Shown piece after piece: positions 40,980-63,992 of a stretch of DNA of 64,000 nt. Source of the DNA: Candidatus Moraniibacteriota bacterium (GTDB lineage Bacteria; Patescibacteriota; Minisyncoccia; Moranbacterales; UBA1568). Under the pieces are notes generated by a model that saw nothing but the letters and a program-made list of their open reading frames with translations, ran no database searches and was not told where the DNA came from. The DNA lies in NCBI GenBank assembly GCA_030648835.1, contig JAUSGT010000002.1:200081-264080 (forward strand). The letters are read 5' to 3'. A program made the position numbers and the translations under genes. Every line of letters begins with the position of its first letter. Position 1 is the first letter of the stretch.

Positions 40980-41798
40980 ATGAATACTCATGGAACAGAC
41001 CGCTCGGTACCGACTATGCAACAGGTGAAGCAGCTGGGGATTTTACTTGGATTCATCCTGGAAATTGTGACCAGGATCGTTACACGCTATTTCTTCGCCT
41101 TGAACTCTGACGAAGCGAAGGCTACGCTCCAGAACAAAGGAGCCCTTTCCAAGAAAATCAAGGTTGCGCTTGCGCCGGTGTTTATGATGGCAGTCGATGA
41201 ATATGCTGCCCAACGAACGTATTGGGAAGGCATCTATCTCACTCACTACGGCATGGCTGCGGATTTCGGCGAAGTAACGGTGCCGGAGAAACCGACAGTC
41301 GGCAAGTGGCGCCTCATTTTCATTCTGAAGGGATTGACGATGAATCACGCGGCGGCCATGTACCGAAAAATTCTTGCGGCCATCGATCCACCGTGGCAAC
41401 TGGTACAGTATATCGATGATTTGGACGCGCAGATTCCTTACAACATTCGTACTTCGGCAGAATCCTATGCTCTTTGGGTACGGGATGGGCAAGAGGCTGA
41501 CGAGGAATTTCGTGCTCAAACGACCAGCCAAGCCGATCCGAATCAATTGATTGGTGTCACGCCGCTCGAGCGTCTCGTTCATGGAGCAGCCCATTTTGTT
41601 GAAACCAAACAACACCTCGACGAGAAAGGGATTACTATCTGTTCAGGTTCGCGCAATGCGGATGGCTGCGTGCCTTGCGTGTGCTCGTATCCGGACAGTC
41701 GCGAGGTGTGCGTGTTTTGGTACAATCTGGGCTATTCGTTTTCCGCTGGCGGTGTCCGTCGAACAGTAGCGCTGCCGCAGGCGGCGCAGACAGCTTAA
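40980..41798 (+). CDS. DGR target protein (variable C-terminal ligand-binding region)
   Basis: 272-aa ORF whose last ~40 codons are the VR (SRNADGCVPCVCSYPDSREVCVFWYNLGYSFSAGGVRR). N-terminal hydrophobic segment. Confidence 0.75.
   Translation: MNTHGTDRSVPTMQQVKQLGILLGFILEIVTRIVTRYFFALNSDEAKATLQNKGALSKKIKVALAPVFMMAVDEYAAQRTYWEGIYLTHYGMAADFGEVTVPEKPTVGKWRLIFILKGLTMNHAAAMYRKILAAIDPPWQLVQYIDDLDAQIPYNIRTSAESYALWVRDGQEADEEFRAQTTSQADPNQLIGVTPLERLVHGAAHFVETKQHLDEKGITICSGSRNADGCVPCVCSYPDSREVCVFWYNLGYSFSAGGVRRTVALPQAAQTA
41645..41766 (+). repeat. DGR variable repeat (VR)
   Basis: 122 bp that differs from the TR at 16 positions, all where the TR has A and the VR has T or G. Confidence 0.8.
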
Positions 41799-42106
41799 CC
41801 TCGATTCTCAACTCTTTTTCTCTTTTTTCCCCGCTGTGCGCGTGCGCGCAGCGGGCTTTTGTTTTTGTCTTTTTCCATCCTTTTCTCGAAAGCTTTGAGA
41901 AGTTGTTGTATACTACAGAAGGTTGTTAAGCCAGTCTTGCTTGGGCAAGATGATGGTTTGCCAAGAACTGAAACTGCCTGTGAGTATTTACGCATAGATT
42001 TTTCATGGTAGGAAATGATGCGACACAGCGCTCGTGACCACGAGGAACACAGATGCTCTGGCGACAGAGGTTCGGTGATAGGGATGGATACTCACAGTAA
42101 AGATGG

Positions 42107-42228
42107 AGGTTCGCGCAATGCGGATGGCAACGTGCCTTACGTGAACTCGAATCCGGACAATCGCAAGGTGAACGTGAATTGGTACAATCTGGACAATTCG
42201 AATTCCGCTGGCGGTGTCCGTCGAGAAG
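42107..42228 (+). repeat. DGR template repeat (TR)
   Basis: Non-coding cognate of the VR with A at all 16 variable positions, rich in AAC/AAT codon-equivalents. The overlapping ORF 42015-42281 is probably not a gene. Confidence 0.8.
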
Positions 42229-42249
42229 TTTCAACACAAGAACATCCCG

Positions 42250-42624
42250 CTAGAGTGCGGGATTTTGTGTCAGGTATTTGATCCAACCATTCGTCATTTT
42301 GGAAGTTTCAACGAGGAGAGCAGCTACCTCGATGTATGATTTTTCAGGGATGACCTTTTGTTCATATTCTATGCGCACCAGGTGTTTCAGGATTTCCAGA
42401 GAGACGCGTACATGCTCGAGTATTTCTCGTTTCTGATATTTCTGCGTGAGCGAGGCGCGAAGGATACCGCTCATGGTTTCTAGCGTGAGATGCTCAATAA
42501 CCTGGTGGATACCGAGTTTATCTCGTTTGGGAATCTTGTGTCCAATTTGGTACAGAGTGGCATATACTTGTTTGATACTATGAACAATCGAAATATCATT
42601 ACTCCGAAGGGGGGGGGGTAACAC
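42250..42624 (-). CDS. avd: Avd-like accessory variability determinant (four-helix-bundle family)
   Basis: 124-aa helical protein between the TR and the RT. Size and placement are typical of DGR Avd, though it is divergently oriented. The N-terminal PPP is encoded by a C10 tract. Confidence 0.55.
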   Translation of the reverse strand: MLPPPLRSNDISIVHSIKQVYATLYQIGHKIPKRDKLGIHQVIEHLTLETMSGILRASLTQKYQKREILEHVRVSLEILKHLVRIEYEQKVIPEKSYIEVAALLVETSKMTNGWIKYLTQNPAL

Positions 42625-42715
42625 TAGAGGAAATTTTTTTCATGATATTATCAGTGTAGCAAATCTTCTCGCCGCTTGGAAAGAGTTTCGGAAGGGAAAA
42701 AGGAAAAAAGGTGAT

Positions 42716-43672
42716 GTGGCTTTGTTTGAATTTCAACTGGAAGACAACTTACTGCAACTGCATCAAGAGCTGGCTTCCCAGACCTACAGGCACGGTCCCT
42801 ACGAAGGTTTTTATGTTTCTGATCCCAAGTTGAGGCACATTCACAAAGCTAGTGTGCGCGATCGAATTCTGCATCAAGCGATTTTCCGTGTGCTATATCC
42901 GATTTTTGACGCGCATTTTATTTATGATTCGTATTCATCGCGCGTTTCCAAGGGTACCCACTTTGGCGTGAAGCGCCTCTTGCAAGCCTGTCGCAAAGTA
43001 AGCGAGAATTGGAAAGCTCCGGCGTACGCGCTGAAATGTGATATACGCAGGTTTTTTGATTCGATAGATCATGCAATTTTGCGCAAGCTCGTCGTAAAGA
43101 AAATTACCGACCATAAGACGCTATGGTTGATCGATATCATTTTTGCAAGCTTTGAGAAAGAAAAAGGGAAAGGACTGCCGCTCGGAAATGTCACCAGCCA
43201 GCTTTTTGCCAATATCTATCTCAATGAGCTGGATCAATTCGCGAAACATACATTGAAGGCGAGGCATTACTTCCGTTATTGCGATGATTTTATTATTGTT
43301 CACCGCAATCGGATTTTTCTTGAAGAAGCATTGGTAAAAATAAGAGCCTTTGTTTCTGAAACATTGTTTTTGGAACTGCATCCTTATAAAGTGGAAATCC
43401 GCAAAGTCAGTCAGGGAATCGATTTTCTGGGCTATGTCATTTTGCCACACCGGACAGTCGTGCGGATGGCTACCAAGAGCCGTCTACTACGAAAGTTAAA
43501 CGATGCCCGAAAAAACTTTCGGACCGGGAAGATAACAGGAGAGACGTTTGGAAGTATTATACATTCTTACCTCGGCGTACTTTTACACTCACGGAACCGG
43601 AGAATAAGAAGATGGGTATGGAAGTTACGCGAGTTGACACAAAGCGGAGATAAAAATGTAAAGTGGCGGTGA
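42716..43672 (+). CDS. DGR reverse transcriptase
   Basis: RT motifs DIRRFFDSIDH (A), LPLGNVTSQLFANIYLNELD (DGR-type motif 4/B) and RYCDDFII (YxDD). Conserved N-terminal residues continue in frame upstream to about 42647 without a canonical start codon. Confidence 0.85.
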   Translation: MALFEFQLEDNLLQLHQELASQTYRHGPYEGFYVSDPKLRHIHKASVRDRILHQAIFRVLYPIFDAHFIYDSYSSRVSKGTHFGVKRLLQACRKVSENWKAPAYALKCDIRRFFDSIDHAILRKLVVKKITDHKTLWLIDIIFASFEKEKGKGLPLGNVTSQLFANIYLNELDQFAKHTLKARHYFRYCDDFIIVHRNRIFLEEALVKIRAFVSETLFLELHPYKVEIRKVSQGIDFLGYVILPHRTVVRMATKSRLLRKLNDARKNFRTGKITGETFGSIIHSYLGVLLHSRNRRIRRWVWKLRELTQSGDKNVKWR

Positions 43673-51717: not shown

Positions 51718-52173
51718 TTGAATACAATGATTCGCGTTGACCGTTCTAAGGACCCCGTTTACCCGGACTTCATAAAAGGGGCAATACACCCCGAGATGGC
51801 GAAAAGTGGTCCGGAAGAATATGATTTTTCCAAGCTTCCTGGCGTTCTCTGGTTTCATGAAGACCAGATGATTAAAGGTTTCAGTCACCCGTCAGCGATT
51901 TACCAATTTCTCAAGGAACAGCAGATGTTTGAAGACTGTTTGGCGCTTAGCGATGGCATGGAAATTGCGAAGAAAGATGCCCGCATCTTCCGCTTATTGT
52001 TTCCTGGGGAAAAGCTTTTTCTCTGGAGATCCGTTGCACAGGACAAGCATAATGACTTGTGCGTTCCATATCTCATGGAACGCAAAGGTCTTATCTATGG
52101 GGATTGGCACTGGTTTGATTTCAGCATAGACAATAACTCTCCAGCGGCGCGTTTTCCTCAGGTTAGCCTCTGA
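51718..52173 (+). CDS. Hypothetical protein (151 aa)
   Basis: aaggagg RBS upstream. No recognisable motif. Confidence 0.5.
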   Translation: MNTMIRVDRSKDPVYPDFIKGAIHPEMAKSGPEEYDFSKLPGVLWFHEDQMIKGFSHPSAIYQFLKEQQMFEDCLALSDGMEIAKKDARIFRLLFPGEKLFLWRSVAQDKHNDLCVPYLMERKGLIYGDWHWFDFSIDNNSPAARFPQVSL

Positions 52174-52427: not shown

Positions 52428-54314
52428 TTATGGTTTTTGGATGTAGTAGACGAAGATGGAGTCGCCGGCACGAGTCACTGGAGTTATATCTTTGAGCCAG
52501 GCATAATTGCGTTCGCCGGGCTGTTTTGTTTTATAGAGGCTCTGCTGATAGAAGAAAGACGAAATGGCATACCAGCCAGCTTCCGGTTCGCGAGTGTCCC
52601 ACCAGCCGATATATTTGTCTTTGAGATAATAAGCTGGACTGGCTCCGCCGAAATAATCGATGCGGATTTTGTCGATGCGCGGGAAATTTGCGCCAAGAGG
52701 ACAGTCTGTATAGATGCTTGTTTCTTTCTCGTCTTTGCAATTGTTTTGATGTTCGACAAAATTTTGCAGGTGTTTCAGGTCCTGACCCCAGTCGTAGTTG
52801 GAGTCGGTGACATACTTATAACCATTGAGATGCCCACCGGCAGCGGCGTTGAAATAAGAAAGATAATTCGGGTAGGCGAGGATAGGAATAGCTATAATTG
52901 ACAACGTCAATCCGCCAAGAATAATTGAAAGAACCTTTTTGGTTGTTTTGTTGTTTTCGTGGCGTCTGAAGAGATCAAAAGCAGTTTTTGCTATGAGCAT
53001 ATACAGAAACGGAAGAATTGGGAAAAGATGGCGGAAGCCGATATTGAGATTCCCAGTGATACTGATATAACTATAAAAAAGAATAAAAAATACAGCGAGA
53101 TACTCAGTGATGTTATTTTGGAAAGAACGAGAAAGGAAAGAAACCCCATCGGTTGATTTTTCGCGAATAACAACTCTTCCCATGCGGTAGAGAGCGTAGA
53201 GAGAAGTAAAAGCGAGAAGAAAAAGAAAGGGCAGCGTTTCTTTGAGGAGGAAAACAACAGGGAAATACCATGGTGAGGCAAGGTTGGTTACGGTACCGAG
53301 AAAGTAATGGTCATTGCCGCTGGCGACGCGAGCAAAGACCATGAAGACACCGAGGAAATATTCACTGAGTGGCTTAAGGAAATTGCTCTCGCTTGTCTTG
53401 ATCACGAATGCGTGCGCGAACTGTGCAAGTTGGTTTTTTTGTCCGAGCGAGAAGTTGGCGGCATCGACAAGTTTTTCTGCCGGCATATTGATTGTGTTCC
53501 ACGCGTACAGCAACCAAATAAGCGCGAAACAGATGAGGACACTCCCGGCAAATTTAAGGCCGTATTTAAGGATTGTTTGAAGTGTAAAAGAAAGAGAGCT
53601 TCGTTTATCATCGGCAGTTTTTTGTTTTGTGATGGCATAGAGGATAACAAAAAGTCCAAAAACAGGAAATAGCAGGACTGCGGAAAATTTGGAGAGCTCC
53701 GCTAGCCCCAGAAAGATTCCTGCTATAAAGACGTTTTTGAAACTTGGCTTTTTCAAGAAACGGATGAAAAAATAAAACGCGAAGAAAATGAAAGCGGCGA
53801 TGCCGATGTCGGTCGTCACATAGTGGTTGTGAGCGATGATATTGGGGTCGAAAGCATACAAGGTAACCGCGAAAAGTCCTGCCAGTGTCCCCGCCAGTTC
53901 TCTGGTCCAGATGAAGATAACGAAACCGAGTATGACAGCAACCAGAGTAACAGGGATGCGTGACCAGAAAAGGATGGTATCAGCGTCATTGCAAATGACA
54001 TCCGGTCGCGTGCAATTGACGAACATATCGCCGATAGCCCACTGTTCGTTAATACCGGATTGCCACTGAGGCGTGTCGATGGGAAAAGATGGCTGCAAGA
54101 AAAGAAGTGGAAGTCCCGCGAGATCTTTGAGGAGGGGCGGGTGTTCGGGATTGAGACGCATATCACCGTAACGAACATAGCTATAAGCAGCCGGAATGTG
54201 AGCCTTTTCGTCAAAAATCATGGATTCTTGTTTGGATACCGAAAGAGACAGAACAAAATGGAAGGCAAGAATCCCGGTGACAATGAGAAACGCGTGTTTT
54301 TTTAAGAAGTTCAT
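52428..54314 (-). CDS. GT39/ArnT-like polytopic membrane glycosyltransferase
   Basis: Multi-TM N-terminal region with PMT/ArnT-like loop motifs. Confidence 0.65.
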   Translation of the reverse strand: MNFLKKHAFLIVTGILAFHFVLSLSVSKQESMIFDEKAHIPAAYSYVRYGDMRLNPEHPPLLKDLAGLPLLFLQPSFPIDTPQWQSGINEQWAIGDMFVNCTRPDVICNDADTILFWSRIPVTLVAVILGFVIFIWTRELAGTLAGLFAVTLYAFDPNIIAHNHYVTTDIGIAAFIFFAFYFFIRFLKKPSFKNVFIAGIFLGLAELSKFSAVLLFPVFGLFVILYAITKQKTADDKRSSLSFTLQTILKYGLKFAGSVLICFALIWLLYAWNTINMPAEKLVDAANFSLGQKNQLAQFAHAFVIKTSESNFLKPLSEYFLGVFMVFARVASGNDHYFLGTVTNLASPWYFPVVFLLKETLPFLFLLAFTSLYALYRMGRVVIREKSTDGVSFLSRSFQNNITEYLAVFFILFYSYISITGNLNIGFRHLFPILPFLYMLIAKTAFDLFRRHENNKTTKKVLSIILGGLTLSIIAIPILAYPNYLSYFNAAAGGHLNGYKYVTDSNYDWGQDLKHLQNFVEHQNNCKDEKETSIYTDCPLGANFPRIDKIRIDYFGGASPAYYLKDKYIGWWDTREPEAGWYAISSFFYQQSLYKTKQPGERNYAWLKDITPVTRAGDSIFVYYIQKP

Positions 54315-54322
54315 AGAGAGAA

Positions 54323-55966
54323 TTATTCTGGGAGAAGAAAATTATCTTTTAGTTTGGGGAGAACCACAACGTTGAAATCTCCTCCGGTGCGCTCCGGCCC
54401 GTTCATATCGATGTGTTCAACATACGCCTCCGGATACAGTTTCTGAATCTGCCCGGTGAGGACATCATTGTAATTGAGCATAAGAAATATTCCGGGTCGG
54501 TGAAGAACCGTATCTTTTTGCACGATTTCGAGGCGGTCAACCTTATGATAGGTGAGAAAATAGACCGGGTGAGCGAAAACAGGTAAGGTGGAGAGGTTGT
54601 TGTTGCCTTTCTCGTCAATGAGCACATACTTATATGTTTCTTTCGGTAAAGAAATGAGGTAGCGGGCCATATTGGTGTAGTTTTCGTTAAAAGAAGCGGC
54701 GGCAGATTCATTGTGAGTGAAGAAAACAAAATATTTTGTGAGATTGAAAACAGCGCTCCCCAAGAGAGCGACGATAAGGAGCGAAAAGAGGGCAACGCGG
54801 GCTCCGGTTTGCGCACGAAGGGCCTTGCGGATTATCCAAAAAGCCGGGAGAGCGGCCATGAGAAAAACCGGCGCCTGTGTGCCGATGGAGCGGAGCGCGT
54901 GTGGCAAACTCTCATTGGTGAGGAATTCGGGCATGAGCATAACAAAAAACGATCCGAGGAGAAAAAAATCCGTGATGAGACGCGTATCTCGGTCACCTCT
55001 CCGGATACGCCGACCGAGGAGGATAATCGTTTGCGATATGACAAAGAGAAAGCCAGCGAGGAAAAATGTTCCGACAAAAGGATCGAGAATCGGATAGGGA
55101 GGATAATTGTGGCGGAAATTCTGGTCACCGAAGAAGTTGTACTTTATGAGTGATAGGGAAAATGTTTTTGCCAGTGTTCCGAAGGGGTCCCCGTGATTGG
55201 CTTCCGCCGAAAAGACAGAAATATGGGATGAACGCGAAGCAAAGTCTTCCGGATGCAAAACGAAAAAATGATAGAGCATGGGCATTGCCGCGATGAGCGC
55301 TGCCAGAAAAAAGAGCGCCGCGTGTTTCCAAAAACGGCGGAGAAAATTTTCGTATGAGAGGATCAGGGCGGGAAGAAGAATGATGAGGATGAGGGGGGCG
55401 ACGCGAAAGGCGATATACGTGTGTAATCCCAACCCAAAGAGAAGTCCGGAAAAGATGAAATCGTGGAATTTTCTCGTGCGGAGCCCGCGAAAGAAAAAGT
55501 AGAACGAAAAAGAGAGGAGGAAGGTCGTCATGATGGCTCGAAAACCGATGCGGGAGAAATTGATCGCCCAATAGGAAGTGGCGAGCATAAACGCGGCAAG
55601 GATGCCCACGATACGGCGGTGGAAGAGTTCTTTTCCCAAAAGATAGATGCCAAGGACGGAAAAAGTTCCGAAAAGAATAGACCAGAGTTTCAGTCCGGTG
55701 ACAGTGTTGCCGAAGATGGCGATCGAGAATGCCTGCAGATTGATAAAGAGTCCTTCACGTCCGAAATTGGCGGGGTAGAAAAGTTTGAAGTCTTTGCTCT
55801 CGAGAGCGTGAAGGGCGTCAACACCATTGGCGGCCTCGTCGGGGTAGAGTCCGGCGGGGGCGGTTTCGATGTGGTAGATCCTGACGGTGAAGGCGAGAAT
55901 GAGGATGACAGCGAGAGCAACCCACGTCGCGATGTGGTGAGGAAGATGAGTGGAACGCTGACTCAT
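54323..55966 (-). CDS. GT39/ArnT-like polytopic membrane glycosyltransferase (second paralog)
   Basis: RIYHIETAPAGLYPDEAANG...FGREGLFINLQ ArnT/PMT signature. Start at the internal ATG (MSQRSTHL). Confidence 0.7.
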   Translation of the reverse strand: MSQRSTHLPHHIATWVALAVILILAFTVRIYHIETAPAGLYPDEAANGVDALHALESKDFKLFYPANFGREGLFINLQAFSIAIFGNTVTGLKLWSILFGTFSVLGIYLLGKELFHRRIVGILAAFMLATSYWAINFSRIGFRAIMTTFLLSFSFYFFFRGLRTRKFHDFIFSGLLFGLGLHTYIAFRVAPLILIILLPALILSYENFLRRFWKHAALFFLAALIAAMPMLYHFFVLHPEDFASRSSHISVFSAEANHGDPFGTLAKTFSLSLIKYNFFGDQNFRHNYPPYPILDPFVGTFFLAGFLFVISQTIILLGRRIRRGDRDTRLITDFFLLGSFFVMLMPEFLTNESLPHALRSIGTQAPVFLMAALPAFWIIRKALRAQTGARVALFSLLIVALLGSAVFNLTKYFVFFTHNESAAASFNENYTNMARYLISLPKETYKYVLIDEKGNNNLSTLPVFAHPVYFLTYHKVDRLEIVQKDTVLHRPGIFLMLNYNDVLTGQIQKLYPEAYVEHIDMNGPERTGGDFNVVVLPKLKDNFLLPE

Positions 55967-56063: not shown

Positions 56064-58160
56064 TTGTTTGGTAATAAGCAAAAAAGAAAAACTAAAATGG
56101 GTGGTTTCATGGAGTTTAGCCGCAAGTTGATGGGGAGAGCCGGAGATGAAAAATCTTCCGGTGGTTTGGCGTTGTCTGGATTGAATCCTCAGCCCGGAGA
56201 AATAATTTTTACCGATCGACACGTGACAATGCCAAAAAAAGAAGTGATTGCTGAAACTGCCGTAGCCAAGGCTGCTTTGGATTTGGTCAAGAGAGTGAAT
56301 GGAAAAAACCATACTGTAGCCCCAGCTTTCCGTTTGGGGACCGGAGAAGTTTTTGCTTCTTCGCAGGGGGAGGATGGTGTACGGAAAAATATTGCTTCGC
56401 CACCGGTTCAGCCGGCAGTGGAGAAAGTAGCGGTTTCAAAAATGGATGTCAGCGTAAAGGAAGACGCTGGCTTACAGCAGGCTACCCCGAGTGACACAGG
56501 AGAAAATATTGGTAGGGTTAAGGAAGTATCGGAAGACCTAGGGAGTCAAGGCGCTACTATGAGAGTACACACGGAAACTGGAAGTATAAGGGGTAGTAAA
56601 AAAATAACGATGGAGCATCCGTTTCAAGCGGTTGAGAAAAGCCATTTACGTAGGAGCGCCAAGCATTTGAGAGAAGGAGATTTATCTGATCAGGTGAGAG
56701 AAGGGTATCTGAAACAACTTACGAAAGTTCAGGCGAGAAAACGGACGGCTACCAAAGAGGATGTTACAAAAGCGAGATCCTTACGAAAGGGTATTTTAGG
56801 AAGTATTGAGCAAAAAAAGATCGATACCGCAGATCAGGCTCAAAGAGAAGAGGAAGAACACCGAGTAGAGCAGGAAAAACTTGCTCGCCTTGAAGCTTTT
56901 AAGAATGAGAATCCGGACTATTATCAAAAGTACGAAGGGGAGATAGCAAAACTCGAGCCGGCCTTCGCTCAAGAGTTTGAAGCCAGCAGGGAGGCTTACA
57001 AGACGTGGGAGCTTTCTTTGAAAAGAAGTGATGGTAAGCTGTTGAAATCTCAAGAGGAAAGCCCGGAGAAAGCAGAAGCGCAGGCTCGTATGGCTGCAAT
57101 GGATGTGCGTTTTCACAAAATGGCAGATCTTGTAGAGGAATTCAATAACCTTGATACGCGCCTTCCGGAAGATGGTCTCAAAGGGCTACTGCTTCTTACG
57201 GAGATGCGCGCGTTGGAAAAAGAAATGCCCAAGAATGCCCAGGAGAAAAAGAAAAAGGTTCTTGACAAACAAAAAGAGATGTATGGGAGCGAGGAACCGA
57301 ATGTGGAACTTATTGAAAAAGGGCATATTCAGGTACTTATCAAGAGAGAGTTGGAAGTGTTGAAAAGAAATTGCGAAAAAGTTCGCGAAAGAGAGCTATT
57401 CATGACAAATAATTTCCCTAACATCGGACAACTGGAAGACCACATACAGTCATTGGCAGATTTGGCTGATTCTTTCGATGATGAGACACCGATGGCGGAG
57501 GTGGAAAAAGCGCTAGAAGAGTTGAGAACACTCGAAAACATGGCTTTTAGTGAAACGCCTCCCGAAAGAGGTAAACCTTTTGGAAAAAAAGCCGGAATAA
57601 AAAGATTGCGGGATGACAAAGAAGTTGCTGGGGGTGCTAAGGGGGAGAGAAAATTTGTGAGAAATCGCGGGGATAAACGAGATCTGGCGTTGGATGAAAC
57701 AGGCGAAGGCGCGAGTCAAGAACCGATTCCGGACAAGCAAAAGAGCGATATGTTACCACAAGGAAATACAGGTGATACGGCTGATGCGGCATCTGATATT
57801 GAGACGTTCCCTATGGATGAACTACCGTCATTCGAAACGGTCGTCTCGGAGAGTGAACGGCAGGGGATTGTTGGAGAGTTACAAGGATTTATAGATGGAG
57901 GATTAGTTGATATTGTCGATTATTTGAAAGAGACAGGAAACAAAGAACTGGGAGCATTGTTAAATAGTAAAAGCCCAGAAGACATAAAGGTGATGGACGA
58001 AGTAGTTCAACCTCTTCTGGACACGATTAGCACGAGTATGCTGAATGTTGCAATCGCATGTGGGGAGAGAATAAAATCTGCAACGCCGGATATTGTAGTT
58101 TCTGCTATTCATAAAAAAGGAACCGATTTGTTAATCGAGGCACAGATGCGATACCTATGA
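56064..58160 (+). CDS. Large charged coiled-coil hypothetical protein (about 690 aa)
   Basis: Long ORF, E/K-rich, no recognisable domain. Start is uncertain (56064, 56097 or 56109). Confidence 0.55.
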   Translation: MFGNKQKRKTKMGGFMEFSRKLMGRAGDEKSSGGLALSGLNPQPGEIIFTDRHVTMPKKEVIAETAVAKAALDLVKRVNGKNHTVAPAFRLGTGEVFASSQGEDGVRKNIASPPVQPAVEKVAVSKMDVSVKEDAGLQQATPSDTGENIGRVKEVSEDLGSQGATMRVHTETGSIRGSKKITMEHPFQAVEKSHLRRSAKHLREGDLSDQVREGYLKQLTKVQARKRTATKEDVTKARSLRKGILGSIEQKKIDTADQAQREEEEHRVEQEKLARLEAFKNENPDYYQKYEGEIAKLEPAFAQEFEASREAYKTWELSLKRSDGKLLKSQEESPEKAEAQARMAAMDVRFHKMADLVEEFNNLDTRLPEDGLKGLLLLTEMRALEKEMPKNAQEKKKKVLDKQKEMYGSEEPNVELIEKGHIQVLIKRELEVLKRNCEKVRERELFMTNNFPNIGQLEDHIQSLADLADSFDDETPMAEVEKALEELRTLENMAFSETPPERGKPFGKKAGIKRLRDDKEVAGGAKGERKFVRNRGDKRDLALDETGEGASQEPIPDKQKSDMLPQGNTGDTADAASDIETFPMDELPSFETVVSESERQGIVGELQGFIDGGLVDIVDYLKETGNKELGALLNSKSPEDIKVMDEVVQPLLDTISTSMLNVAIACGERIKSATPDIVVSAIHKKGTDLLIEAQMRYL

Positions 58161-58224
58161 TAGAAAAAATATAAGGTGTATTATAGGAGAATAAAAGTAG
58201 ATACAAACTTATTTACGAACTCAT

Positions 58225-60624
58225 ATGTTGATTGAAGACGCAAAGAATCAGATCATAGCACGCTCGCTCGCGGCTGCAGAAAATGCCAGAAAATCTCGGG
58301 CGAGTGGGGCAGGAACACCGGGTTTGCCAGAACTCACACCAAACGGACAGGGAGATGTTGTAGTTGATGTCGTAAAAGTTGCAGATGGAGAGAAACCAGA
58401 TGTTGATGTGGAAAAGAATACGAGGGTACGGGAACCCAGAGCTAAAAAGCCAACGGCGGGTGCTCCAGCTCGGCCAGATTTACACAAAGAAGTGGGAGAA
58501 GTTCCGGATGCCAGGAAAGAGGCATTTCTGACGGTTTTTACGAAAAAATTTGAAGAGTTGAAAGAAAAAATATCGACAGCAGATGGCAGGACGTTGAGAG
58601 GTGTGAAACGCGGCAAAGAAGGCGACGTTTACAGGTTTTTTAATCTTGATGACTTTGCCGATTATTTCAATAACTTGAATGGGAAGAGGGAAGAAGCGGA
58701 ACGTGTGGAAGGAATTGAAAAGATAGTTGTGGCGGAAAGAGAACTGGGAGAATTATATAGGGCCCGGTGGGAGGCGCTAAAAGGAAAAGGAGCAACATCG
58801 GTAGATAGACAAGGGCGAGAAAAGAGACCTTCGATTCAAGAATCAGTGAGTGATGGTGACAAGTGGTTACAGGAGACGAAAACGTTGATACCGGAGTTGG
58901 GCAATCTGGATGCTTTGAAGAAGCTGACAGTTTTTATAGGTGAGGGCGCAAGAAGAACAAGAAGTTTTGATTTTCCCGCTGGGTTTACATATCTTTTAGG
59001 AAAAAATGTTCCAGAAAATATTCGGGAACGATTCAGAACTGAGAAGAGTGACCTTATGAAGCTCTGGCAGGTGCAGGTGGTGAAGGTTCTCTTCGATCAG
59101 CCGGGTGTCGAATCAGGCTTCGCAAACTTTTTGCAAGGCTCATTTCAAGAACTGAAAGATAAAAAATTGAGGAAAACAGATTTTATTGAAAGGTGTGTTC
59201 AGAGACTGGGCCTCAAAGAAAAGGAGCTGGAGGATTTAGCAGAGCCAAGACCCTGTAAAGCTTTACAGGATGAGCTTCACGAACTTTATAATAAAAACTT
59301 CGCGGCTATTGAAGCGGCACAGCAGGCAAAAGGGAGTGGCGGAAAACCAGAGGATAAAAAACTTACCAATGAGGAGTTGTTTGCAGAACTGGCCAACAAA
59401 TTGAAAGTGGACGGAGTCTTTAAGAAGGGCGAGGAACCGTTACTGATCATAAGAACTCTTCCTTTGGAAAATGCCCCTCCAGAGATAGGTATAGAGTATA
59501 GAGATGACAGTGGGACTTGGAAGAAAGGAAAAGTTACGCCAAAACTCGTGCAGGGATTTTTGAAACAATTGAAGACAAACTTCGGCTGGACTTTGGAGAA
59601 AATGATCGTGGTACAGCCAGCGGCGAAGAAAAAACGTTCGGGTGTTTCTAAAGGTTTGCCGATTACCCCGGATGAAGCTGCCAGGAGAGCTCTAGCTTCT
59701 AAAAAAGCTTGGGATGAACAATATGAAAGAAATATGGCAGCTCAGAAAGCAGAGGCTGAGGAAAAAAGAAAAGCAGGAGCTGTAAAGCCAGAGCTGAAGT
59801 CACCAGTGGATGAGCAAGAGAGCGTACGGGGAATGAATGAAAATAGAGAAATCAAGGAAGCGATATTGAAAGCAGGAAATTTTAGTGAATTATTTGAGAC
59901 TTTAAACGGTGTAGAAGGGATTCAAGGGGAAGAGCGATTTTTCGAGTCGGTGTATCTCATCGCCACTATCAATTCAGTCAGGGAGGGGACTCTTGAAGTT
60001 AACTCTGTAACGAGAGGGGCTAGCCTGCGCGACAAGGTAGGAGAGCTCTTGAAAATAGAGAGGAAGGCACAAGCGGCACTGAAGATATTGGGGGGTATTA
60101 TCGAGAAAAAGAAAACATGGGCGGAGAGATATTTTAAAAAAAATCCTGATACAATAACACAGGGACAATACAATCAACTGGTTTCCTTCCTTGACAGATT
60201 ATTGGATTCCACCACGAGCGCTCTTACAAAAGATCCTAAGAACAGAAAAGTAATTTACGCTCTCAAGGAGGCTCGCGAGGTCAGATTTATGCCGGAAGAA
60301 CCAGTAAAAGGGCAGCCTGTCGTTGTGCCTGAACAGTTAAAACCGCAAGAACGGACGTATGAAGAACTGGAGGCGCAATTGCAGGAAGACGGCACCGATC
60401 TTCTGATAATGGGTTCTTTGGGCAAGGCTTTCCATGCCATGAAGACAACGTCGGCTGAACTTGCCAAGAATAAAGAACAGTATTGGGAGGTTATCAAGAC
60501 TGAAATGTTGAAAAACTTCGGAAAATCCCTGAAGGGAATTCAGAAGAGGTTTGGCTGGATTGATGCGGAATTGAATGACTTTTCCGAGAAAATCATCCGC
60601 AAAGCATTTGAGAAGTATCTCTAG
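58225..60624 (+). CDS. Large charged hypothetical protein (799 aa)
   Basis: Long ORF, no recognisable domain. Confidence 0.55.
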   Translation: MLIEDAKNQIIARSLAAAENARKSRASGAGTPGLPELTPNGQGDVVVDVVKVADGEKPDVDVEKNTRVREPRAKKPTAGAPARPDLHKEVGEVPDARKEAFLTVFTKKFEELKEKISTADGRTLRGVKRGKEGDVYRFFNLDDFADYFNNLNGKREEAERVEGIEKIVVAERELGELYRARWEALKGKGATSVDRQGREKRPSIQESVSDGDKWLQETKTLIPELGNLDALKKLTVFIGEGARRTRSFDFPAGFTYLLGKNVPENIRERFRTEKSDLMKLWQVQVVKVLFDQPGVESGFANFLQGSFQELKDKKLRKTDFIERCVQRLGLKEKELEDLAEPRPCKALQDELHELYNKNFAAIEAAQQAKGSGGKPEDKKLTNEELFAELANKLKVDGVFKKGEEPLLIIRTLPLENAPPEIGIEYRDDSGTWKKGKVTPKLVQGFLKQLKTNFGWTLEKMIVVQPAAKKKRSGVSKGLPITPDEAARRALASKKAWDEQYERNMAAQKAEAEEKRKAGAVKPELKSPVDEQESVRGMNENREIKEAILKAGNFSELFETLNGVEGIQGEERFFESVYLIATINSVREGTLEVNSVTRGASLRDKVGELLKIERKAQAALKILGGIIEKKKTWAERYFKKNPDTITQGQYNQLVSFLDRLLDSTTSALTKDPKNRKVIYALKEAREVRFMPEEPVKGQPVVVPEQLKPQERTYEELEAQLQEDGTDLLIMGSLGKAFHAMKTTSAELAKNKEQYWEVIKTEMLKNFGKSLKGIQKRFGWIDAELNDFSEKIIRKAFEKYL

Positions 60625-60632
60625 TTTACCGT

Positions 60633-63600
60633 ATGGCATCCAAAGAATTCGATATACTAAAAGCGATTCAAGCAGGGGCGAAGACCGGGAGCGAAGAGCT
60701 CGAGGGCCAGCTTGGCATTGGTGGAAAAGACAAGAAAAAATATTCACCAAAATCCCGTAAGTCCGCTAGAGCCGCTGTAACGTCTGAAATTGCTCCGGGC
60801 ATTCCCGTTACCCCGGTTGTTGTGGAACCGATGTCGGCATCGGCAGATGTCATTGTACCCAAAAAACTGAGAGGGCGGCGGAGACAAGGTGGAGGAGATA
60901 AAGGAAAAAAATCAGAAAGTATAACTATTTCTTCGGCGATGCAAGCTCCGGCCTTGCCCAATGTTGTTGTGGCGCCTGATTCAGAAGCAGCAAAATTGAA
61001 CCGCGTTTCTCCCATTGATCTTTCGGAAGTGAAGAACGGAAAAGACTTTCAATTTGCTGACAAAGATGGAAGCGACTTCATTGTGAGAGCGGATAATGAA
61101 ACACCGGGCCATTACCTTCTTCTTTCCGGAGATGGAAAACGAGTTTTAGGTTCTTTTGGCGAAGGCCATATAAGGGGAATAATAGAAGATGAAAGAGTGG
61201 AAGCGGTTGTTGAGCCAGTAGCATCAGCTTCAATGGAACCAGTAGCAATGGCAGAACCAGAACTGACAGTTGAACCTGCAATGGCTACTATCCCGAAAGC
61301 AGTTATCCCGGACGCCATCACCAAGCCTTTCATATCTACTCCAGAAGTGGAAGCGTCTCTCAATGCGGGTCTAAACGCTTTGGAGAGAGGCGAAACATTG
61401 CGTTTTGTCGGGAAAACCGGAGATATTTATAGGGTGAGCAAACGAGATAGTGTTCATTATAATTTGACACAGCCTGATGGGAGGATTGATGCGGTTAATG
61501 AGATATATTTACGGGAACAAATGGAGGGGAACTGGACGCGTTTGGAAAACGAAGAACCGGAACTGCCCAAGGGAACCACTCCGGAAAATCCTTCCGTTTC
61601 TCCTACTGAGAGAGAAAAGCTTGAACAGAAAATTGCCGCCTTGAAAAAAGAGGTGGAAGATCTACGCAAAGAATATGTAAAAGCAGATTACGAAGAGACG
61701 AATGCGTGGGCGAGGGTGAGGAAGTTTTTCGGAAAAAATTTGAAAGGTCTCGGTGAGAGAGACTGGCAGGAAAAACAATATAATAAGAAAGATGGTAATT
61801 CAGATGGTGTGTACATGCAGGCATTGTATCAGAACAAACTGGTTGATTTGAAGAATGCAGAGCTGTCTTTGATCAAGGAGCGCGCAGCCGCAGGCGATGG
61901 ATGGAAAAAAGAAATGGGCGATATGATCAAATACTTCGGTGTGGATGAAGTGACGAAGTTGATAGACGCCCGCACACAGTATCGGGCGGAGAATCAGAAT
62001 TTTCCGACGAAAATACTCGACGCATTTGGGGCTTTGGGAAGAGAGTATAACAAGCTTTCCATGAAACAAAAATTGGCTATTACTGCTGTCTGTGCAGCTG
62101 GGACGATTGGGCTTACTTTATCCGGTGGCACGGCGGCCGGTGCGATGGCTGGTTTGATCATGGGCGGAAAAAGATTTTTTGCGACTGCCGGACTGACGGT
62201 CGGTACGGAGGCCCTGCTTGATAGTTCCCGGACAAGGATGCGTAGCAAAGAAATGGAAGAAGAAATGAAGACGCTCGAAAAAGAGATGTCCGAAAAAGGA
62301 TTTGCCCACCTCGAAGCTGTTATCAAGAATAAAGCGCTCTCGATCGATGATGAGCTCCAGAAGGCGAAACTGACGAAGTTGCTCCACAAGGCCGGTGCAT
62401 TGACTGTTGGTTTGGCTGTCGGTTCCGGTTGGCTGACGCAGGTAGTGATGGATCATTTTGGCGGGCATGAAGCCGTCGATTGGGTGAAAGAGCACGCTAA
62501 AAATCTTATGGGAGATTATACTGTGATCCATCCCAAAGCAGAATTTGCCGCAAAAATGCCGATAGATCTTGATTTAGATTCAGACGCGCGGGACAGCGCT
62601 ATGGCCGCGGCCAGCCAAGCTCCAGTGATGTCTGGAGGTGTTCCTGACCCAGGTCTTGAACTGGATTCAGACGCGCGGGACAGCGCTTACTTGGCAGCGG
62701 ATAAAGGATCAGCGTCGCCTGGTAGTGCTTTTATCACAGGGAACGAATCAGAGTTGGACATGCGGGACAGCGCCCAAATAGCAGCAGGCCAAGCAGAGAC
62801 AGTTCCTGGGAATCTTTCCGGTACAGGCGATGGATCAGAGTTGGACATGCGGGACAGCGCTCAAGCAGTAGTAGAACAAGCGAAGGAATCACCTAGCAGT
62901 GCTTTTATCACAGGGAACGAATCAGAATTGGATATGCGGGCTGACAATCCACTAGCAAGTGAAACGGGCAATGGATCAGAGTTGGATATGCGAGATAGCG
63001 TTCAGATTGCGGCTGCCACAGCCGCTGAAGCGAGGCCTAGCATCATCAATGAGTTTATCAATCAAGACATCACCGTGAAGAAAGGCGATTCAGTATGGAA
63101 AATTGCCGGCAGGTTGGCGAAAGAACTTGGGATAGACGAAAAAAGTCCTCAAGGCACGCGTTTCATCAATGCCTTGAAAAATCAGTATGGGGATGTCTTA
63201 CTGAAAGAGGGATCTGTCATCAATCTTGCAGATAGCGGTATAGACAAGGAATTTGTCGAAAATGCATATGCAGATGCCACTACCTTGTCACCGGAAAAGA
63301 TGGCGAGTATCGCGGCCAACGATGTGAAGCTTCGGGAATTTGCGGCGGCTCATCCGGATGTCACGCTGACGGACGGCAAAGTGGATGATATTTTACATGG
63401 GAATGGAGCGGATCCGGCGGGGAAAACAAATCTTGGGTGGGAACATGGAGATGATGAAACCATAAACTATAATGATCATACGGTGAGAGAAACACCATCG
63501 GAAGAGAATATGGACGATCTTGTTTCTGATTCATCATCTGATACTCAGGCGGAATCCAGTGGAGCAGCCGCGTCGGAAAACGAAACGGTAATTGTAACTC

Positions 63601-63992
63601 GCGATGAGGGATCGGTAAAAAGTGCTGACATAGAATATGAGCGGGATATTCGTTTGGGGAAAGCGTACGATATCAATGTATATAAGGAGTATTTTGTGCA
63701 AAATCCGGAAGCATTCGGAGCATATAAAAAACTGGGAGAAGGCTATCTGGGGTTCATTTCGCAGGGCGATGCGAGCGCGATGAGATCTTTGGGAGGCAAG
63801 ACATTCCGCGAGTTAGGGAATATTGTGAGCGATCCTTTGGGGAGATTTGTGGCGTTGGCCAGGGAAGTCTATGGGAGTAAACTCGGTCTGCCCGGTCCGA
63901 AAGAAAAAGTGTATGAATATGTGGCGCGCATGGCGATGATCGGTATGGAACATCCGGAAGGCAAACTCATTCGGATTCCGCAGTCGATATGA
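60633..63992 (+). CDS. Giant membrane-anchored hypothetical protein (1119 aa) with acidic tandem repeats and a LysM-like segment
   Basis: Central TM helices (AITAVCAAGTIGLTLSGGTAAGAMAGLIMGG), repeats of (G)SELDMRDSAQ / LDSDARDSA, and a LysM-like ITVKKGDSVWKIAGRLAKELGID. Confidence 0.6.
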   Translation: MASKEFDILKAIQAGAKTGSEELEGQLGIGGKDKKKYSPKSRKSARAAVTSEIAPGIPVTPVVVEPMSASADVIVPKKLRGRRRQGGGDKGKKSESITISSAMQAPALPNVVVAPDSEAAKLNRVSPIDLSEVKNGKDFQFADKDGSDFIVRADNETPGHYLLLSGDGKRVLGSFGEGHIRGIIEDERVEAVVEPVASASMEPVAMAEPELTVEPAMATIPKAVIPDAITKPFISTPEVEASLNAGLNALERGETLRFVGKTGDIYRVSKRDSVHYNLTQPDGRIDAVNEIYLREQMEGNWTRLENEEPELPKGTTPENPSVSPTEREKLEQKIAALKKEVEDLRKEYVKADYEETNAWARVRKFFGKNLKGLGERDWQEKQYNKKDGNSDGVYMQALYQNKLVDLKNAELSLIKERAAAGDGWKKEMGDMIKYFGVDEVTKLIDARTQYRAENQNFPTKILDAFGALGREYNKLSMKQKLAITAVCAAGTIGLTLSGGTAAGAMAGLIMGGKRFFATAGLTVGTEALLDSSRTRMRSKEMEEEMKTLEKEMSEKGFAHLEAVIKNKALSIDDELQKAKLTKLLHKAGALTVGLAVGSGWLTQVVMDHFGGHEAVDWVKEHAKNLMGDYTVIHPKAEFAAKMPIDLDLDSDARDSAMAAASQAPVMSGGVPDPGLELDSDARDSAYLAADKGSASPGSAFITGNESELDMRDSAQIAAGQAETVPGNLSGTGDGSELDMRDSAQAVVEQAKESPSSAFITGNESELDMRADNPLASETGNGSELDMRDSVQIAAATAAEARPSIINEFINQDITVKKGDSVWKIAGRLAKELGIDEKSPQGTRFINALKNQYGDVLLKEGSVINLADSGIDKEFVENAYADATTLSPEKMASIAANDVKLREFAAAHPDVTLTDGKVDDILHGNGADPAGKTNLGWEHGDDETINYNDHTVRETPSEENMDDLVSDSSSDTQAESSGAAASENETVIVTRDEGSVKSADIEYERDIRLGKAYDINVYKEYFVQNPEAFGAYKKLGEGYLGFISQGDASAMRSLGGKTFRELGNIVSDPLGRFVALAREVYGSKLGLPGPKEKVYEYVARMAMIGMEHPEGKLIRIPQSI

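What the first reader, a model, noticed from the sequence alone, without database searches (positions are those of the whole stretch)
56064..63992. Three tandem giant charged proteins; the last is membrane-anchored with acidic tandem repeats and LysM
ORFs of 698, 799 and 1119 aa are co-directional with about 10-65-nt spacers, E/K-rich, and lack recognisable catalytic motifs. The third has central TM helices, at least five repeats of (G)SELDMRDSAQ / LDSDARDSA, and a LysM-like peptidoglycan-binding segment. The arrangement suggests a surface or cell-contact apparatus, of the kind often enlarged in small-genome symbiotic lineages.
Basis: inference. Interest (0 to 1): 0.5.

Follow-up and report, generated by a model that had tools for sequence, protein, structure and literature searches.

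The report
Split giant envelope protein beside orphan ATPase
Three large unannotated genes in a tiny-genome Moranbacteria (CPR) bacterium are the fast-evolving, split-up front half of a conserved six-gene operon that ends in a DNA/protein-pump-like ATPase, which points to an undescribed wall-anchored membrane machine rather than a simple surface adhesin.

Summary
Three co-directional ORFs (698/687, 799 and 1119 aa) are real genes of a Candidatus Moranbacteria MAG. None has a Pfam, NCBIfam, PADLOC, PHROG, PDB or fold match. ORF3 has conserved hydrophobic helices, six 29-aa acidic repeats and a sub-threshold LysM-like module.

ORF3 belongs to a large unannotated Patescibacteria family (563 clusters). 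In about 19 distinct loci examined, plus the source genome, it is followed by DUF5663, a ~140-aa protein and a membrane-anchored DUF8128/VirD4-TraG-like ATPase. The setting is core chromosome (ftsQ, two PMT_2 glycosyltransferases, mreB, murA).

ORF1 and ORF2 have no export signal and diverge much faster than their flanks. They are absent or replaced in many genomes. Elsewhere they are fused to each other or to the predicted cytoplasmic N-terminus of ORF3-type proteins. The acidic repeats are specific to this genome and triple an extracellular linker.

Best reading (about 0.4): the trio is a split modular scaffold that spans the envelope, binds the wall and partners the orphan coupling-protein-like ATPase. 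The substrate is unknown. No SMC/Muk, T4SS-core, adhesin or phage tape-measure relationship was found.

The parts
52428..54314 (-). PMT_2 (GT-C, ArnT/PMT-like) membrane glycosyltransferase, 628 aa. It is a conserved neighbour transcribed divergently from the trio.
   Evidence: Precomputed Pfam PF13231/PF02366. It sits in the same position in L001-L015, L018, L021, L023 and L024, at 56-72% identity in Moranbacteria.
54323..55966 (-). Second PMT_2 glycosyltransferase (called as 547 aa; the mechanical ORF extends to 56125). About 130 nt of divergent intergenic DNA separate it from ORF1.
56064..58160 (+). ORF1: a soluble, charged protein (pI 5.6). The likely start is ATG 56097 (687 aa). It has a conserved N-terminal peptide (MGGFxEFxRKLMGRAGDEKSSGG), a helical middle module and a conserved ~115-aa C-terminal domain. 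It has no TM helix, signal peptide or known domain.
   Evidence: Homologues exist in L001, L003, L007, L010, L012, L013, P0008 and P0011.
58225..60624 (+). ORF2: a soluble, basic, charged protein (pI 9.0) with no TM helix, signal peptide or known domain. Its modules recur fused to ORF1-type proteins (P0008, L003 808-aa protein) and to the N-terminus of ORF3-type proteins (P0026, P0077, P0078).
60633..63992 (+). ORF3: a 1119-aa polytopic membrane protein belonging to a 563-cluster Patescibacteria family without annotation.
61020..61547 (+). ORF3 aa 130-305: two small beta domains (130-190 and 240-305) joined by a disordered linker, predicted to be cytoplasmic.
   Evidence: AF2 with 78 sequences gives pLDDT ~90 or above. 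There is only a weak, non-significant Sm/Hfq-like resemblance. An HMM of this region finds only ORF3-type proteins.
61593..62492 (+). ORF3 aa 321-620: the conserved family core, a helical bundle that includes the membrane segments.
   Evidence: It is covered in about 100-138 of 139 aligned homologues. R345 and Y399 are invariant or nearly so. pLDDT is 80-97 for most helices.
62073..62168 (+). H1, aa 481-512: an uncharged Gly/Ala-rich hydrophobic stretch with a central SGG turn, interpreted as a membrane hairpin with both ends inside the cell.
   Evidence: Across 68 family members it is a median 31 aa long, has essentially no charges, and is flanked by K/R on both sides. The hairpin reading is an inference.
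62394..62453 (+). H3, aa 588-607: a transmembrane helix predicted to run from inside to outside.
   Evidence: Across 68 members there are 5.16 K/R per 14 aa before it, and 1.6 K/R against 2.49 D/E after it. The loop at 513-587 has pI 9.0 and the part at 608-1119 has pI 4.5.
62562..63022 (+). Six tandem acidic repeats (87-nt / 29-aa period; core motifs LDSDARDSA and SELDMRDSAQ). They form a disordered extracellular linker and are an insertion specific to this genome.
   Evidence: They are absent from P0002-P0004. pLDDT is below 50. The linker is 198 aa here against a family median of 69 aa.
63048..63407 (+). ORF3 aa 806-925: a conserved extracellular module made of a divergent LysM-like beta-alpha-alpha-beta unit (aa ~813-865, motif ITVKKGDSVWKIAGRLA ... 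LLKEGSVINL) followed by a helical subdomain.
   Evidence: pLDDT is 92-97 with DSSP elements b813-814, a821-831, a839-852 and b862-863. Ten of 22 family modules give sub-threshold Pfam LysM hits. The family profile hits the LytE and SafA LysM repeats.
63669..63947 (+). ORF3 aa 1013-1105: a C-terminal helical domain, predicted extracellular. It is one of at least three alternative C-terminal types in the family.
   Evidence: pLDDT is about 76-85 for aa 1050-1100. The C-terminal variants are listed.

Best explanation
The three ORFs are the variable 5' half of a six-gene operon: ORF1, ORF2, ORF3, DUF5663, a ~140-aa acidic protein, and an 830-aa ATPase. The last three genes begin 37 nt past ORF3's stop, just outside the window.

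The ATPase is anchored in the membrane at its N-terminus. It carries a DUF8128 region and a VirD4/TraG/TrwB-like P-loop domain.

ORF3 is the membrane-spanning partner. Its predicted layout, from N- to C-terminus, is:
- a cytoplasmic arm of two small beta domains and a helical bundle;
- a Gly/Ala-rich membrane hairpin and a third TM helix;
- an extended extracellular linker, tripled in length here by six acidic 29-aa repeats;
- a divergent LysM-like module that most likely binds peptidoglycan;
- a helical end domain.

ORF1 and ORF2 are soluble, charged cytoplasmic modules of the same system. In other genomes they are fused to each other or to the cytoplasmic N-terminus of ORF3-type proteins. 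The trio therefore behaves as one modular giant protein that has been split into three genes.

Proposed mechanism: ORF1, ORF2 and ORF3 form a wall-tethered scaffold or stator. It positions, and perhaps gates or regulates, the hexameric coupling-protein-like motor, which moves a macromolecule (DNA or protein; the substrate is unknown) across the membrane without a VirB4-type T4SS.

Shown here: the genes are real, and the family size, conserved linkage, gene fusions, lack of known domains, charge and topology signals, and the lineage-specific repeat insertion.

Inferred, not shown: physical complex formation, peptidoglycan binding, and translocation as the function.
For: 1. Linkage. An ORF3-type gene is directly followed by DUF5663, a ~140-aa ORF and the DUF8128/TraG-like ATPase in all loci with enough flank: L001-L015, L018, L019 and L021, and the distant members P0075, P0150, P0108 and P0099 at about 18-20% identity.

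2. Operon structure. The only strong terminator (12-bp stem) lies right after the ATPase stop and is followed by a 12/12 promoter. Nothing comparable occurs from the ORF1 start to the ATPase end, and the gaps are 8-110 nt.

3. ATPase identity. TrwB_AAD_bind scores 28.9 bits (cutoff 20.5) and TraG-D_C 26.9 (cutoff 22). The best PDB sequence hits are TrwB and DotL. It has an N-terminal TM segment (aa 6-36) and a Walker A motif, GQTGVGKS.

4. Rosetta-stone fusions. ORF1-ORF2 fusions are P0008 and the L003 808-aa protein. ORF2-ORF3 fusions are P0026 (BLASTP 7e-17 to ORF2 and 1e-49 to the ORF3 core), P0077 (5e-19 and 5e-12) and P0078.

5. Topology. Positive-inside statistics over 68 members, a basic loop and an acidic C-terminal part, and an AF2 helix break at the SGG turn.

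6. LysM-like module. It is confidently modelled as beta-alpha-alpha-beta, with recurrent sub-threshold LysM hits.

7. Divergence contrast. Against the closest genome (L001), the flanking genes are 72-90% identical, but ORF1 is 56%, ORF2 44% and the ORF3 N-terminal part 38%.

8. Literature. Patescibacteria carry 5,713 VirD4-like T4CP homologues, of which only 148 are near virB4. The authors suggest exaptation for other functions (PMC12102498).
Against: - No physical interaction was tested; linkage and fusions only imply a functional association.
- LysM membership fails the Pfam cutoff, and no LysM structure appeared among the top fold hits.
- The 31-aa H1 segment is short for a full double-spanning hairpin. 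If it spans the membrane once, the C-terminus would be cytoplasmic and the wall-binding idea would fail.
- No dedicated topology predictor was available.
- The ATPase's T4CP similarity is weak outside the P-loop and C-terminal motifs. Full-length homologues (about 22% identity) exist in large Bacillus phages with unknown function.
- ORF1 and ORF2 are missing from many genomes that keep the rest of the operon, so they are dispensable for the core function.
Confidence: 0.4

Rival explanations
1. Surface or host-contact apparatus with secreted cargo. The ORF3 exterior contacts the host cell. ORF1 and ORF2 are fast-evolving effectors or surface components exported in a Sec-independent way by the adjacent coupling-protein-like ATPase.
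For: - ORF1 and ORF2 diverge much faster than their flanks, and their number and content vary between genomes.
- They lack Sec signals yet sit in an operon with a secretion-type ATPase.
- Repeat expansion has occurred in the exposed linker.
- Patescibacteria are commonly epibionts, and their T4SS genes matter for epibiotic growth (PMC12102498).
Against: - ORF2 modules are found fused to the N-terminal side of ORF3-type proteins, which is predicted to be cytoplasmic. That fits tethered intracellular modules better than released cargo.
- No adhesin, toxin or enzyme domain occurs in the trio or in 36 large family members.
- No translocation channel components (VirB4, VirB6, VirB3) are nearby.
- No Moranbacteria host association is documented in the data used here.
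Confidence: 0.2
2. Cell-division or morphogenesis scaffold. The operon is a housekeeping envelope module in which an FtsK/HerA-class DNA pump works with a peptidoglycan-tethered bitopic/polytopic partner (analogous to FtsN/SPOR- or DivIVA/EzrA-type organisers). ORF1 and ORF2 are cytoskeletal-like coiled-coil accessories.
For: - The neighbourhood is invariantly chromosomal and envelope- or division-related: holB, ftsQ-like POTRA, two PMT_2, mreB, murA, murD, GT4s and, downstream, rmuC and a mraY-like gene.
- The ATPase is 77-93% identical across Moranbacteria, which is a housekeeping level of constraint.
- The ORF3 architecture (cytoplasmic N-terminus, TM, linker, wall-binding domain) resembles division proteins with peptidoglycan-binding ends.
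Against: - The ATPase matches FtsK_SpoIIIE only at 13 bits (cutoff 24) but passes the T4CP models.
- ftsA and ftsZ are not adjacent.
- There is no sequence or fold similarity of the trio to DivIVA, EzrA, FtsN, SMC or MukB.
- ORF1 and ORF2 are dispensable in many genomes.
Confidence: 0.2
3. Domesticated phage or mobile-element module. ORF3 is a tape-measure-like protein (long helical, Gly-rich hydrophobic segments, wall-targeting module) and the ATPase is a phage-derived packaging or injection motor, fixed in the chromosome.
For: - The ATPase matches phrog_5156 over its full length (2.3e-87) and has ~22%-identical homologues in Bacillus phage G, SP-10 and CP-51.
- The gross architecture of ORF3 recalls tape-measure proteins (author's knowledge).
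Against: - The trio has no PHROG hit.
- Foldseek against BFVD gave 0 hits at E<=1e-3, and tape measure reached only probability 0.04.
- There are no capsid, tail or integrase genes in the 64-kb window or the downstream 10 kb.
- The chromosomal position is identical in all 14 loci with upstream flank, 13 of them other genomes.
Confidence: 0.05

Closest known systems
Type IV coupling proteins (VirD4/TrwB/TraG/TraD) and the monoderm-type T4SS of Patescibacteria (PMC12102498)
   Same: - The ATPase at the 3' end of the operon passes Pfam TrwB_AAD_bind and TraG-D_C.
- It has an N-terminal membrane anchor and a Walker A motif.
- Monoderm T4SSs also use large membrane proteins with wall-directed modules (VirB1/PrgK-type, some with LysM).
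- Most Patescibacteria T4CP homologues are likewise 'orphans', far from virB4.
   Different: - No VirB4, VirB3, VirB6, VirB8, VirB1 hydrolase or relaxase is present in the window or the 10 kb downstream.
- ORF1-3 have no similarity to any T4SS component.
- The ATPase carries an unusual ~400-aa DUF8128 region.
- ORF3 has no hydrolase domain.
LysM-domain wall-binding proteins (e.g. LytE, SafA, YneA)
   Same: - They share the motif Y/I-x-V-k-K-G-D-S-l-W-k-I-a.
- ORF3's module has a confidently predicted beta-alpha-alpha-beta unit.
- The family profile hits the LytE and SafA LysM repeats.
   Different: - The module scores below the Pfam gathering threshold in every member tested (best 19.3 against 20.9).
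- Only the first 16 profile positions align.
- The second helix and the loop are longer, with insertions of up to ~25 aa in some members.
- No catalytic partner domain is present.
FtsK/SpoIIIE-HerA division and DNA translocases with peptidoglycan-tethered partners (FtsN/SPOR-type architecture)
   Same: - The ATPase belongs to the same superfamily.
- The neighbourhood is division- and envelope-related.
- The partner protein has the layout cytoplasmic N-terminus, TM, flexible linker, wall-binding module.
   Different: - There is no sequence or fold relationship to FtsN, DedD, DivIVA or EzrA.
- The FtsK_SpoIIIE Pfam model is not passed (13 bits against 24).
Phage tape-measure proteins
   Same: They are also very long and mostly helical, with central Gly-rich hydrophobic segments, a wall-directed module and rapid length variation through repeats.
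   Different: - No PHROG or BFVD match was found.
- There is no phage gene context.
- The chromosomal position is conserved across a whole lineage.
SMC/MukB-type chromosome organisers
   Same: They share only large size and charged helical content.
   Different: - There are no conserved Walker A/B heads, no hinge and no SMC/Muk hit in Pfam, NCBIfam or the PDB.
- The single G-x4-GKT match, at ORF3 residue 925, lies in a disordered segment with no clear consensus in the family alignment.

Membership tests
LysM domain (PF01476) | Sequence match to the family model at or above the gathering score (20.9 bits) | tested here: not met
   15.3 bits on whole ORF3 and 19.3 bits on the isolated module. 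Ten of 22 family modules hit at E<=1, none reaches the cutoff, and only profile positions 1-16 match.
LysM domain (PF01476) | Beta-alpha-alpha-beta fold of about 45 residues | tested here: inconclusive
LysM domain (PF01476) | Binds GlcNAc-containing glycans (peptidoglycan or chitin) | not testable with these tools
   This needs a binding assay with recombinant ORF3 aa ~800-925.
Type IV coupling protein (VirD4/TrwB/TraG), for the downstream ATPase that defines the operon | P-loop NTPase matching T4CP family models, with an N-terminal membrane anchor | tested here: met
   TrwB_AAD_bind 28.9 bits (cutoff 20.5) and TraG-D_C 26.9 (cutoff 22). TM segment at aa 6-36 and Walker A GQTGVGKS. TrwB and DotL are the best PDB hits.
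Type IV secretion system (as a system) | VirB4 ATPase plus channel components (VirB3/6/8) and/or a relaxase encoded with the T4CP | tested here: not met
   None is present in the 64-kb window or the 10 kb downstream. Whether they occur elsewhere on the 636-kb contig could not be examined.
SMC/MukB | N- and C-terminal ABC-type ATPase head halves (Walker A/B) flanking a long antiparallel coiled coil with a hinge | tested here: not met
   ORF1 and ORF2 have no Walker A motif. ORF3 has one non-conserved match in a disordered region. There are no SMC/Muk hits.
Phage tape-measure protein | Match to tape-measure families or structures, and location in a tail-gene cluster | tested here: not met
   No PHROG hit. 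BFVD tape-measure probability is 0.04. The neighbours are housekeeping genes.
Gram-positive-type surface adhesins | N-terminal Sec signal peptide, a C-terminal LPXTG or other wall-sorting signal, and Ig-like or beta-rich stalk domains | tested here: not met
   The N-termini are not hydrophobic and there is no LPXTG motif. The predicted structure is mainly helical.
Type VII secretion (EssC/EccC + WXG100) | A multi-domain FtsK/SpoIIIE ATPase with small WXG100 helical-hairpin substrates | tested here: not met
   FtsK_SpoIIIE scores 13 bits against a cutoff of 24, and only a single P-loop domain is present. The ~100-aa neighbour is DUF5663, with no WXG100 hit.
ORF3 family (unnamed; 563 clusters) | Conserved helical core with an uncharged ~31-aa Gly/Ala segment and a third TM helix, followed by the V-x-K-G-D-S-V-W-K-I module; gene followed by DUF5663 | tested here: met

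The most novel reading that the evidence does not exclude
The operon encodes a previously unrecognised envelope machine, found in Moranbacteria and related Patescibacteria. It would be a minimal, VirB4-independent translocon built around the 'orphan' coupling-protein-like ATPase. Its giant, modular, wall-anchored partner (here split into ORF1, ORF2 and ORF3) would diversify rapidly because it interfaces with host cells or with imported or exported macromolecules. This would give a function to part of the more than 5,000 orphan T4CP homologues reported in Patescibacteria.
Probability: 0.25. Interest if true: 0.8.

Novelty: new variant of a known kind. Interest (0 to 1): 0.55.

Why it matters
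Patescibacteria (CPR) make up a large share of bacterial diversity, and most of their lineage-specific proteins have no assigned function.

A 2025 survey (PMC12102498) found thousands of VirD4-like coupling-protein genes in these genomes that are not next to any T4SS, and it left their role open. This locus gives those orphan ATPases, at least in Moranbacteria and relatives, a fixed set of partners:
- a giant wall-anchored membrane protein family (563 clusters, none annotated);
- DUF5663;
- a ~140-aa acidic protein.

It also shows that the partner's cytoplasmic arm is a hotspot of gene fission, fusion, module shuffling and repeat expansion.

That turns 'three hypothetical giants' into a testable system, through complex prediction, peptidoglycan binding, localisation and essentiality. 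It also gives annotators a rule: an ORF3-type gene followed by DUF5663 and DUF8128. If the machine moves DNA or proteins, it bears on how ultra-small, auxotrophic bacteria exchange material with their surroundings.

Tried and rejected
- Domain and family scans of the trio against Pfam, NCBIfam, PADLOC and PHROGs found nothing above threshold.
- Profile searches of the ORF1, ORF2 and ORF3 families against PDB sequences found nothing meaningful. The protein A hit is a chance match to 'LNEEQRNAFIQSLKD'.
- Paralogy among ORF1, ORF2 and ORF3 is rejected. BLAST all-against-all and hhalign (probability below 1%) show three unrelated families.
- A shared small beta-domain between ORF2 and the ORF3 N-terminus is rejected: the HMM finds only ORF3-type proteins.
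- A shared C-terminal domain between ORF1 and ORF2 (both contain 'GTDLLI' and end in 'YL') is rejected: the ORF1 C-terminal HMM does not hit ORF2.
- A J-domain in the N-terminus of homologue P0004 ('YHPDKN') has no Pfam support.
- Fusions of ORF1 directly to the ORF3 core are supported only by a short N-terminal peptide resemblance in P0004/L005. The ORF1 HMM does not hit any ORF3-type protein.
- The first structure job, with 4 sequences, was too shallow (mean pLDDT 41.6) and was superseded by the 78-sequence job.
- The GTDB scan with the deep alignment failed for lack of a conserved 7-10-column stretch and was repeated with A1.
- Literature searches for DUF5663, DUF8128, PF18908 and PF26449 returned no papers. 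Two broader searches were uninformative.
- dN/dS was not attempted, because the closest genome is already only 44-56% identical at the protein level and synonymous sites would be saturated.

Full report
**Observation**

The window carries three co-directional + strand ORFs exactly where stated: 56064-58160 (698 aa), 58225-60624 (799 aa) and 60633-63992 (1119 aa). They are separated by 64 nt and 8 nt. ORFs of this length cannot be chance events, and each has protein-level homologues elsewhere. The source is a Candidatus Moranbacteria MAG (locus tags Q7S04_02320 and Q7S04_02325, contig 635,596 bp).

- ORF1 most likely starts at ATG 56097 (Met12), because homologues align from there.
- ORF1 and ORF2 are E/K-rich. 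ORF3 is A/G/E-rich.
- ORF3 has two hydrophobic regions, aa 481-512 and 588-607.
- ORF3 has six acidic repeats of 29 aa (87 nt) at 62562-63022. No shuffle out of 20,000 reproduced them.
- ORF3 has a 'VKKGDSVWKIA' segment that scores 15.3 bits against Pfam LysM, below the cutoff of 20.9.
- Nothing else passes threshold in Pfam, NCBIfam, PADLOC or PHROGs.

**Context**

The window is core chromosome. It holds the S10-spc ribosomal operon, secY, adk and map. It also holds murD, gdh, trxB-like, murA, mreB, two GT4 genes, holB and an ftsQ-like POTRA gene, and two divergently transcribed PMT_2 (GT-C) glycosyltransferases directly upstream of ORF1.

A longer contig of the same genome (L002) shows what lies past the window's end. 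ORF3 is followed after 36 nt by DUF5663 (102 aa), a 139-aa acidic protein and an 830-aa protein. That 830-aa protein:
- passes Pfam TrwB_AAD_bind (28.9 bits against 20.5) and TraG-D_C (26.9 against 22);
- has an N-terminal TM segment and a Walker A motif;
- finds TrwB and DotL as its best PDB relatives.

The only strong terminator, followed by a perfect promoter, lies just after this ATPase, and nothing comparable interrupts the stretch from ORF1 to the ATPase. A six-gene operon is therefore likely; this is an inference.

**Conservation**

The word-indexed search found only 3-4 relatives per protein. A full HMMER profile search with the ORF3 alignment found 563 cluster representatives (362 at E<=1e-10). 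They share a core at ORF3 aa ~321-620 and, in most cases, the module at ~800-925. Thirty-six of the largest members contain no significant Pfam domain. The sources name them only 'hypothetical protein' from Patescibacteria or Moraniibacteriota.

In about 19 distinct loci examined, plus the source genome, with enough flank, the ORF3-type gene is directly followed by DUF5663, a ~140-aa ORF and the DUF8128/TraG-like ATPase. In the Moranbacteria loci with upstream flank it is preceded by ftsQ and the two PMT_2 genes. These loci include members only 18-20% identical.

The literature held here has no mention of DUF5663 or DUF8128. It does record that Patescibacteria have 5,713 VirD4-like T4CP homologues, of which only 148 are near virB4, and that exaptation 'cannot be ruled out' (PMC12102498).

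**The trio is the variable part**

The slot between PMT_2 and DUF5663 holds different sets of proteins in different genomes:
- 698+799+1119 aa here;
- 684+960+928;
- 961+1031+1021;
- 808+411 (PP2C-like)+858;
- 327+1005;
- 394+815;
- 167+1551;
- a single protein of 879, 903, 982 or 1252 aa.

Against the closest genome, the flanking genes are 72-90% identical, but ORF1 is 56%, ORF2 44% and the N-terminal part of ORF3 38%. The acidic repeats are absent from all close homologues. They stretch the linker between the last TM helix and the LysM-like module to 198 aa, against a family median of 69 aa; this is the second longest of 68.

**Relationships among the three**

They are not paralogues (BLAST; hhalign probability below 1%). 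They are, however, linked by gene fusions.
- P0008 and the L003 808-aa protein combine ORF1-type and ORF2-type modules.
- ORF2-type modules occur at the N-terminus of proteins that carry the ORF3 core. These are P0026 (BLASTP 7e-17 to ORF2; 1e-49 and 64% identity to the ORF3 core and module), P0077 (5e-19 and 5e-12) and P0078.

The first protein of the slot also tends to begin with the same short peptide (MFGxEKxLGR...), whether it is ORF1-type or an ORF3-type protein. This last point is weak.

**Structure and topology of ORF3**

With a 78-sequence alignment, AF2 gave mean pLDDT 63 and 315 residues above 90. The model shows:
- two small beta domains (130-190 and 240-305);
- a helical core (325-600) with a break at the SGG turn inside the first hydrophobic stretch;
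- a disordered repeat region;
- a very confident module at 800-925 (pLDDT 92-97) beginning with a beta-alpha-alpha-beta unit;
- a helical C-terminal domain.

Across 68 members, the first hydrophobic stretch is about 31 uncharged residues flanked by K/R on both sides. The second is about 20 residues, with 5.2 K/R before it and a net-negative flank after it. In ORF3 the intervening loop has pI 9.0 and the C-terminal 510 residues have pI 4.5.

By the positive-inside rule this gives a cytoplasmic N-terminus, a membrane hairpin, a single span and an extracellular C-terminus. This is an inference, because no dedicated predictor was available.

LysM membership is unresolved. Ten of 22 family modules give sub-threshold LysM hits and the family profile finds the LytE and SafA LysM repeats. 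No member reaches the cutoff, and no fold search returned LysM. Fold searches were otherwise uninformative.

**Interpretation**

The best-supported reading is that ORF1, ORF2 and ORF3 are one modular, envelope-spanning, wall-tethered scaffold that has been split into three genes. ORF1 and ORF2 sit on the cytoplasmic side. The scaffold works with the downstream coupling-protein-like ATPase and its two small acidic partners. I put this at about 0.4, with the transported substrate unknown.

The rivals are:
- a host-contact apparatus with ORF1 and ORF2 as exported cargo (0.2). It is favoured by rapid divergence, but disfavoured by the fusions to the cytoplasmic arm and by the absence of adhesin or effector domains.
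- a division or morphogenesis module (0.2). It is favoured by the neighbourhood and by the strong conservation of the ATPase, but there is no similarity to known division scaffolds and the FtsK model is not passed.
- a domesticated phage module (0.05). The ATPase has full-length homologues in large Bacillus phages, but the trio has no phage match and the context is chromosomal.

**Novelty**

The parts that can be named (a T4CP-like ATPase and a LysM-like module) are of known kinds. The ORF1, ORF2 and ORF3 families, DUF5663 and the operon as a unit are undescribed in the resources searched. I rate the finding a new variant of a known kind: a coupling-protein/FtsK-HerA-class motor with a novel wall-anchored partner. 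It has moderate-to-good interest because it makes the 'orphan T4CP' question in Patescibacteria directly testable.

Noticed in passing
window 40980-43672 (+): A complete diversity-generating retroelement (DGR). The target gene is a 272-aa ORF (40980-41798) with a variable repeat at its 3' end (41645-41767). The template repeat is at 42107-42229 and the RVT_1 reverse transcriptase at 42716-43672. The 123-nt repeats are 85% identical, and all 16 mismatches inside the core are A in the template copy, which is the adenine-mutagenesis signature.
   Followed up: partly
L002 14277-16769 (same genome, 285-2777 nt past the window end): The 830-aa DUF8128/T4CP-like ATPase matches phrog_5156 (unknown function) over its full length (2.3e-87). 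It has ~22%-identical full-length homologues in large Bacillus phages (phage G gp156, SP-10, CP-51, Goe26), all annotated as hypothetical. It also hits PADLOC mad8 (2.8e-13).
   Followed up: partly
L002 17253-19721 (-) and 19888-20493 (+): Two further conserved neighbours of unknown function. The first is an 822-aa single-TM protein (TM at aa 519-537) with no domain hit, 42-79% identical across Moranbacteria. The second is a 201-aa protein, 80-87% identical, that matches the PADLOC candidate family PDC-M05A (8.9e-20). It is followed by rmuC.
   Followed up: no
L003 8610-9845 (related genome): In one lineage a 411-aa PP2C/SpoIIE-like phosphatase gene occupies the slot between the ORF1/ORF2-fusion gene and the ORF3-type gene. 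This hints at phospho-regulation of the system.
   Followed up: no
window 52428-55966 (-): Two paralogous PMT_2 (GT-C) glycosyltransferases lie immediately upstream of, and divergent from, the slot in all 14 loci with upstream flank, the source genome's among them. The extracellular linkers of ORF3-type proteins are A/P/S/T-rich, so they could be the glycosylation substrates. This is pure inference and was not tested.
   Followed up: no
window 1-64000: GC skew is positive in every 2-kb bin and the cumulative skew rises monotonically. Purine excess is strongest over the trio (GC skew 0.19-0.29, AT skew 0.20-0.23 at 56-62 kb). Nearly all of the genes identified are on the + strand, which is consistent with a single replichore and leading-strand coding.
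   Followed up: no
window 51718-52173 (+): A 151-aa ORF lies between the ftsQ-like gene and the PMT_2 genes. It has no Pfam hit and was detected by tblastn only in this genome's own contig, not in the other loci then fetched.
   Followed up: no
P0006 / P0007 (ORF2 homologues in L007 and L001): ORF2-type proteins in related genomes contain an internal duplication of the module equivalent to ORF2 aa ~206-471. This is another sign of module shuffling in the family.
   Followed up: no
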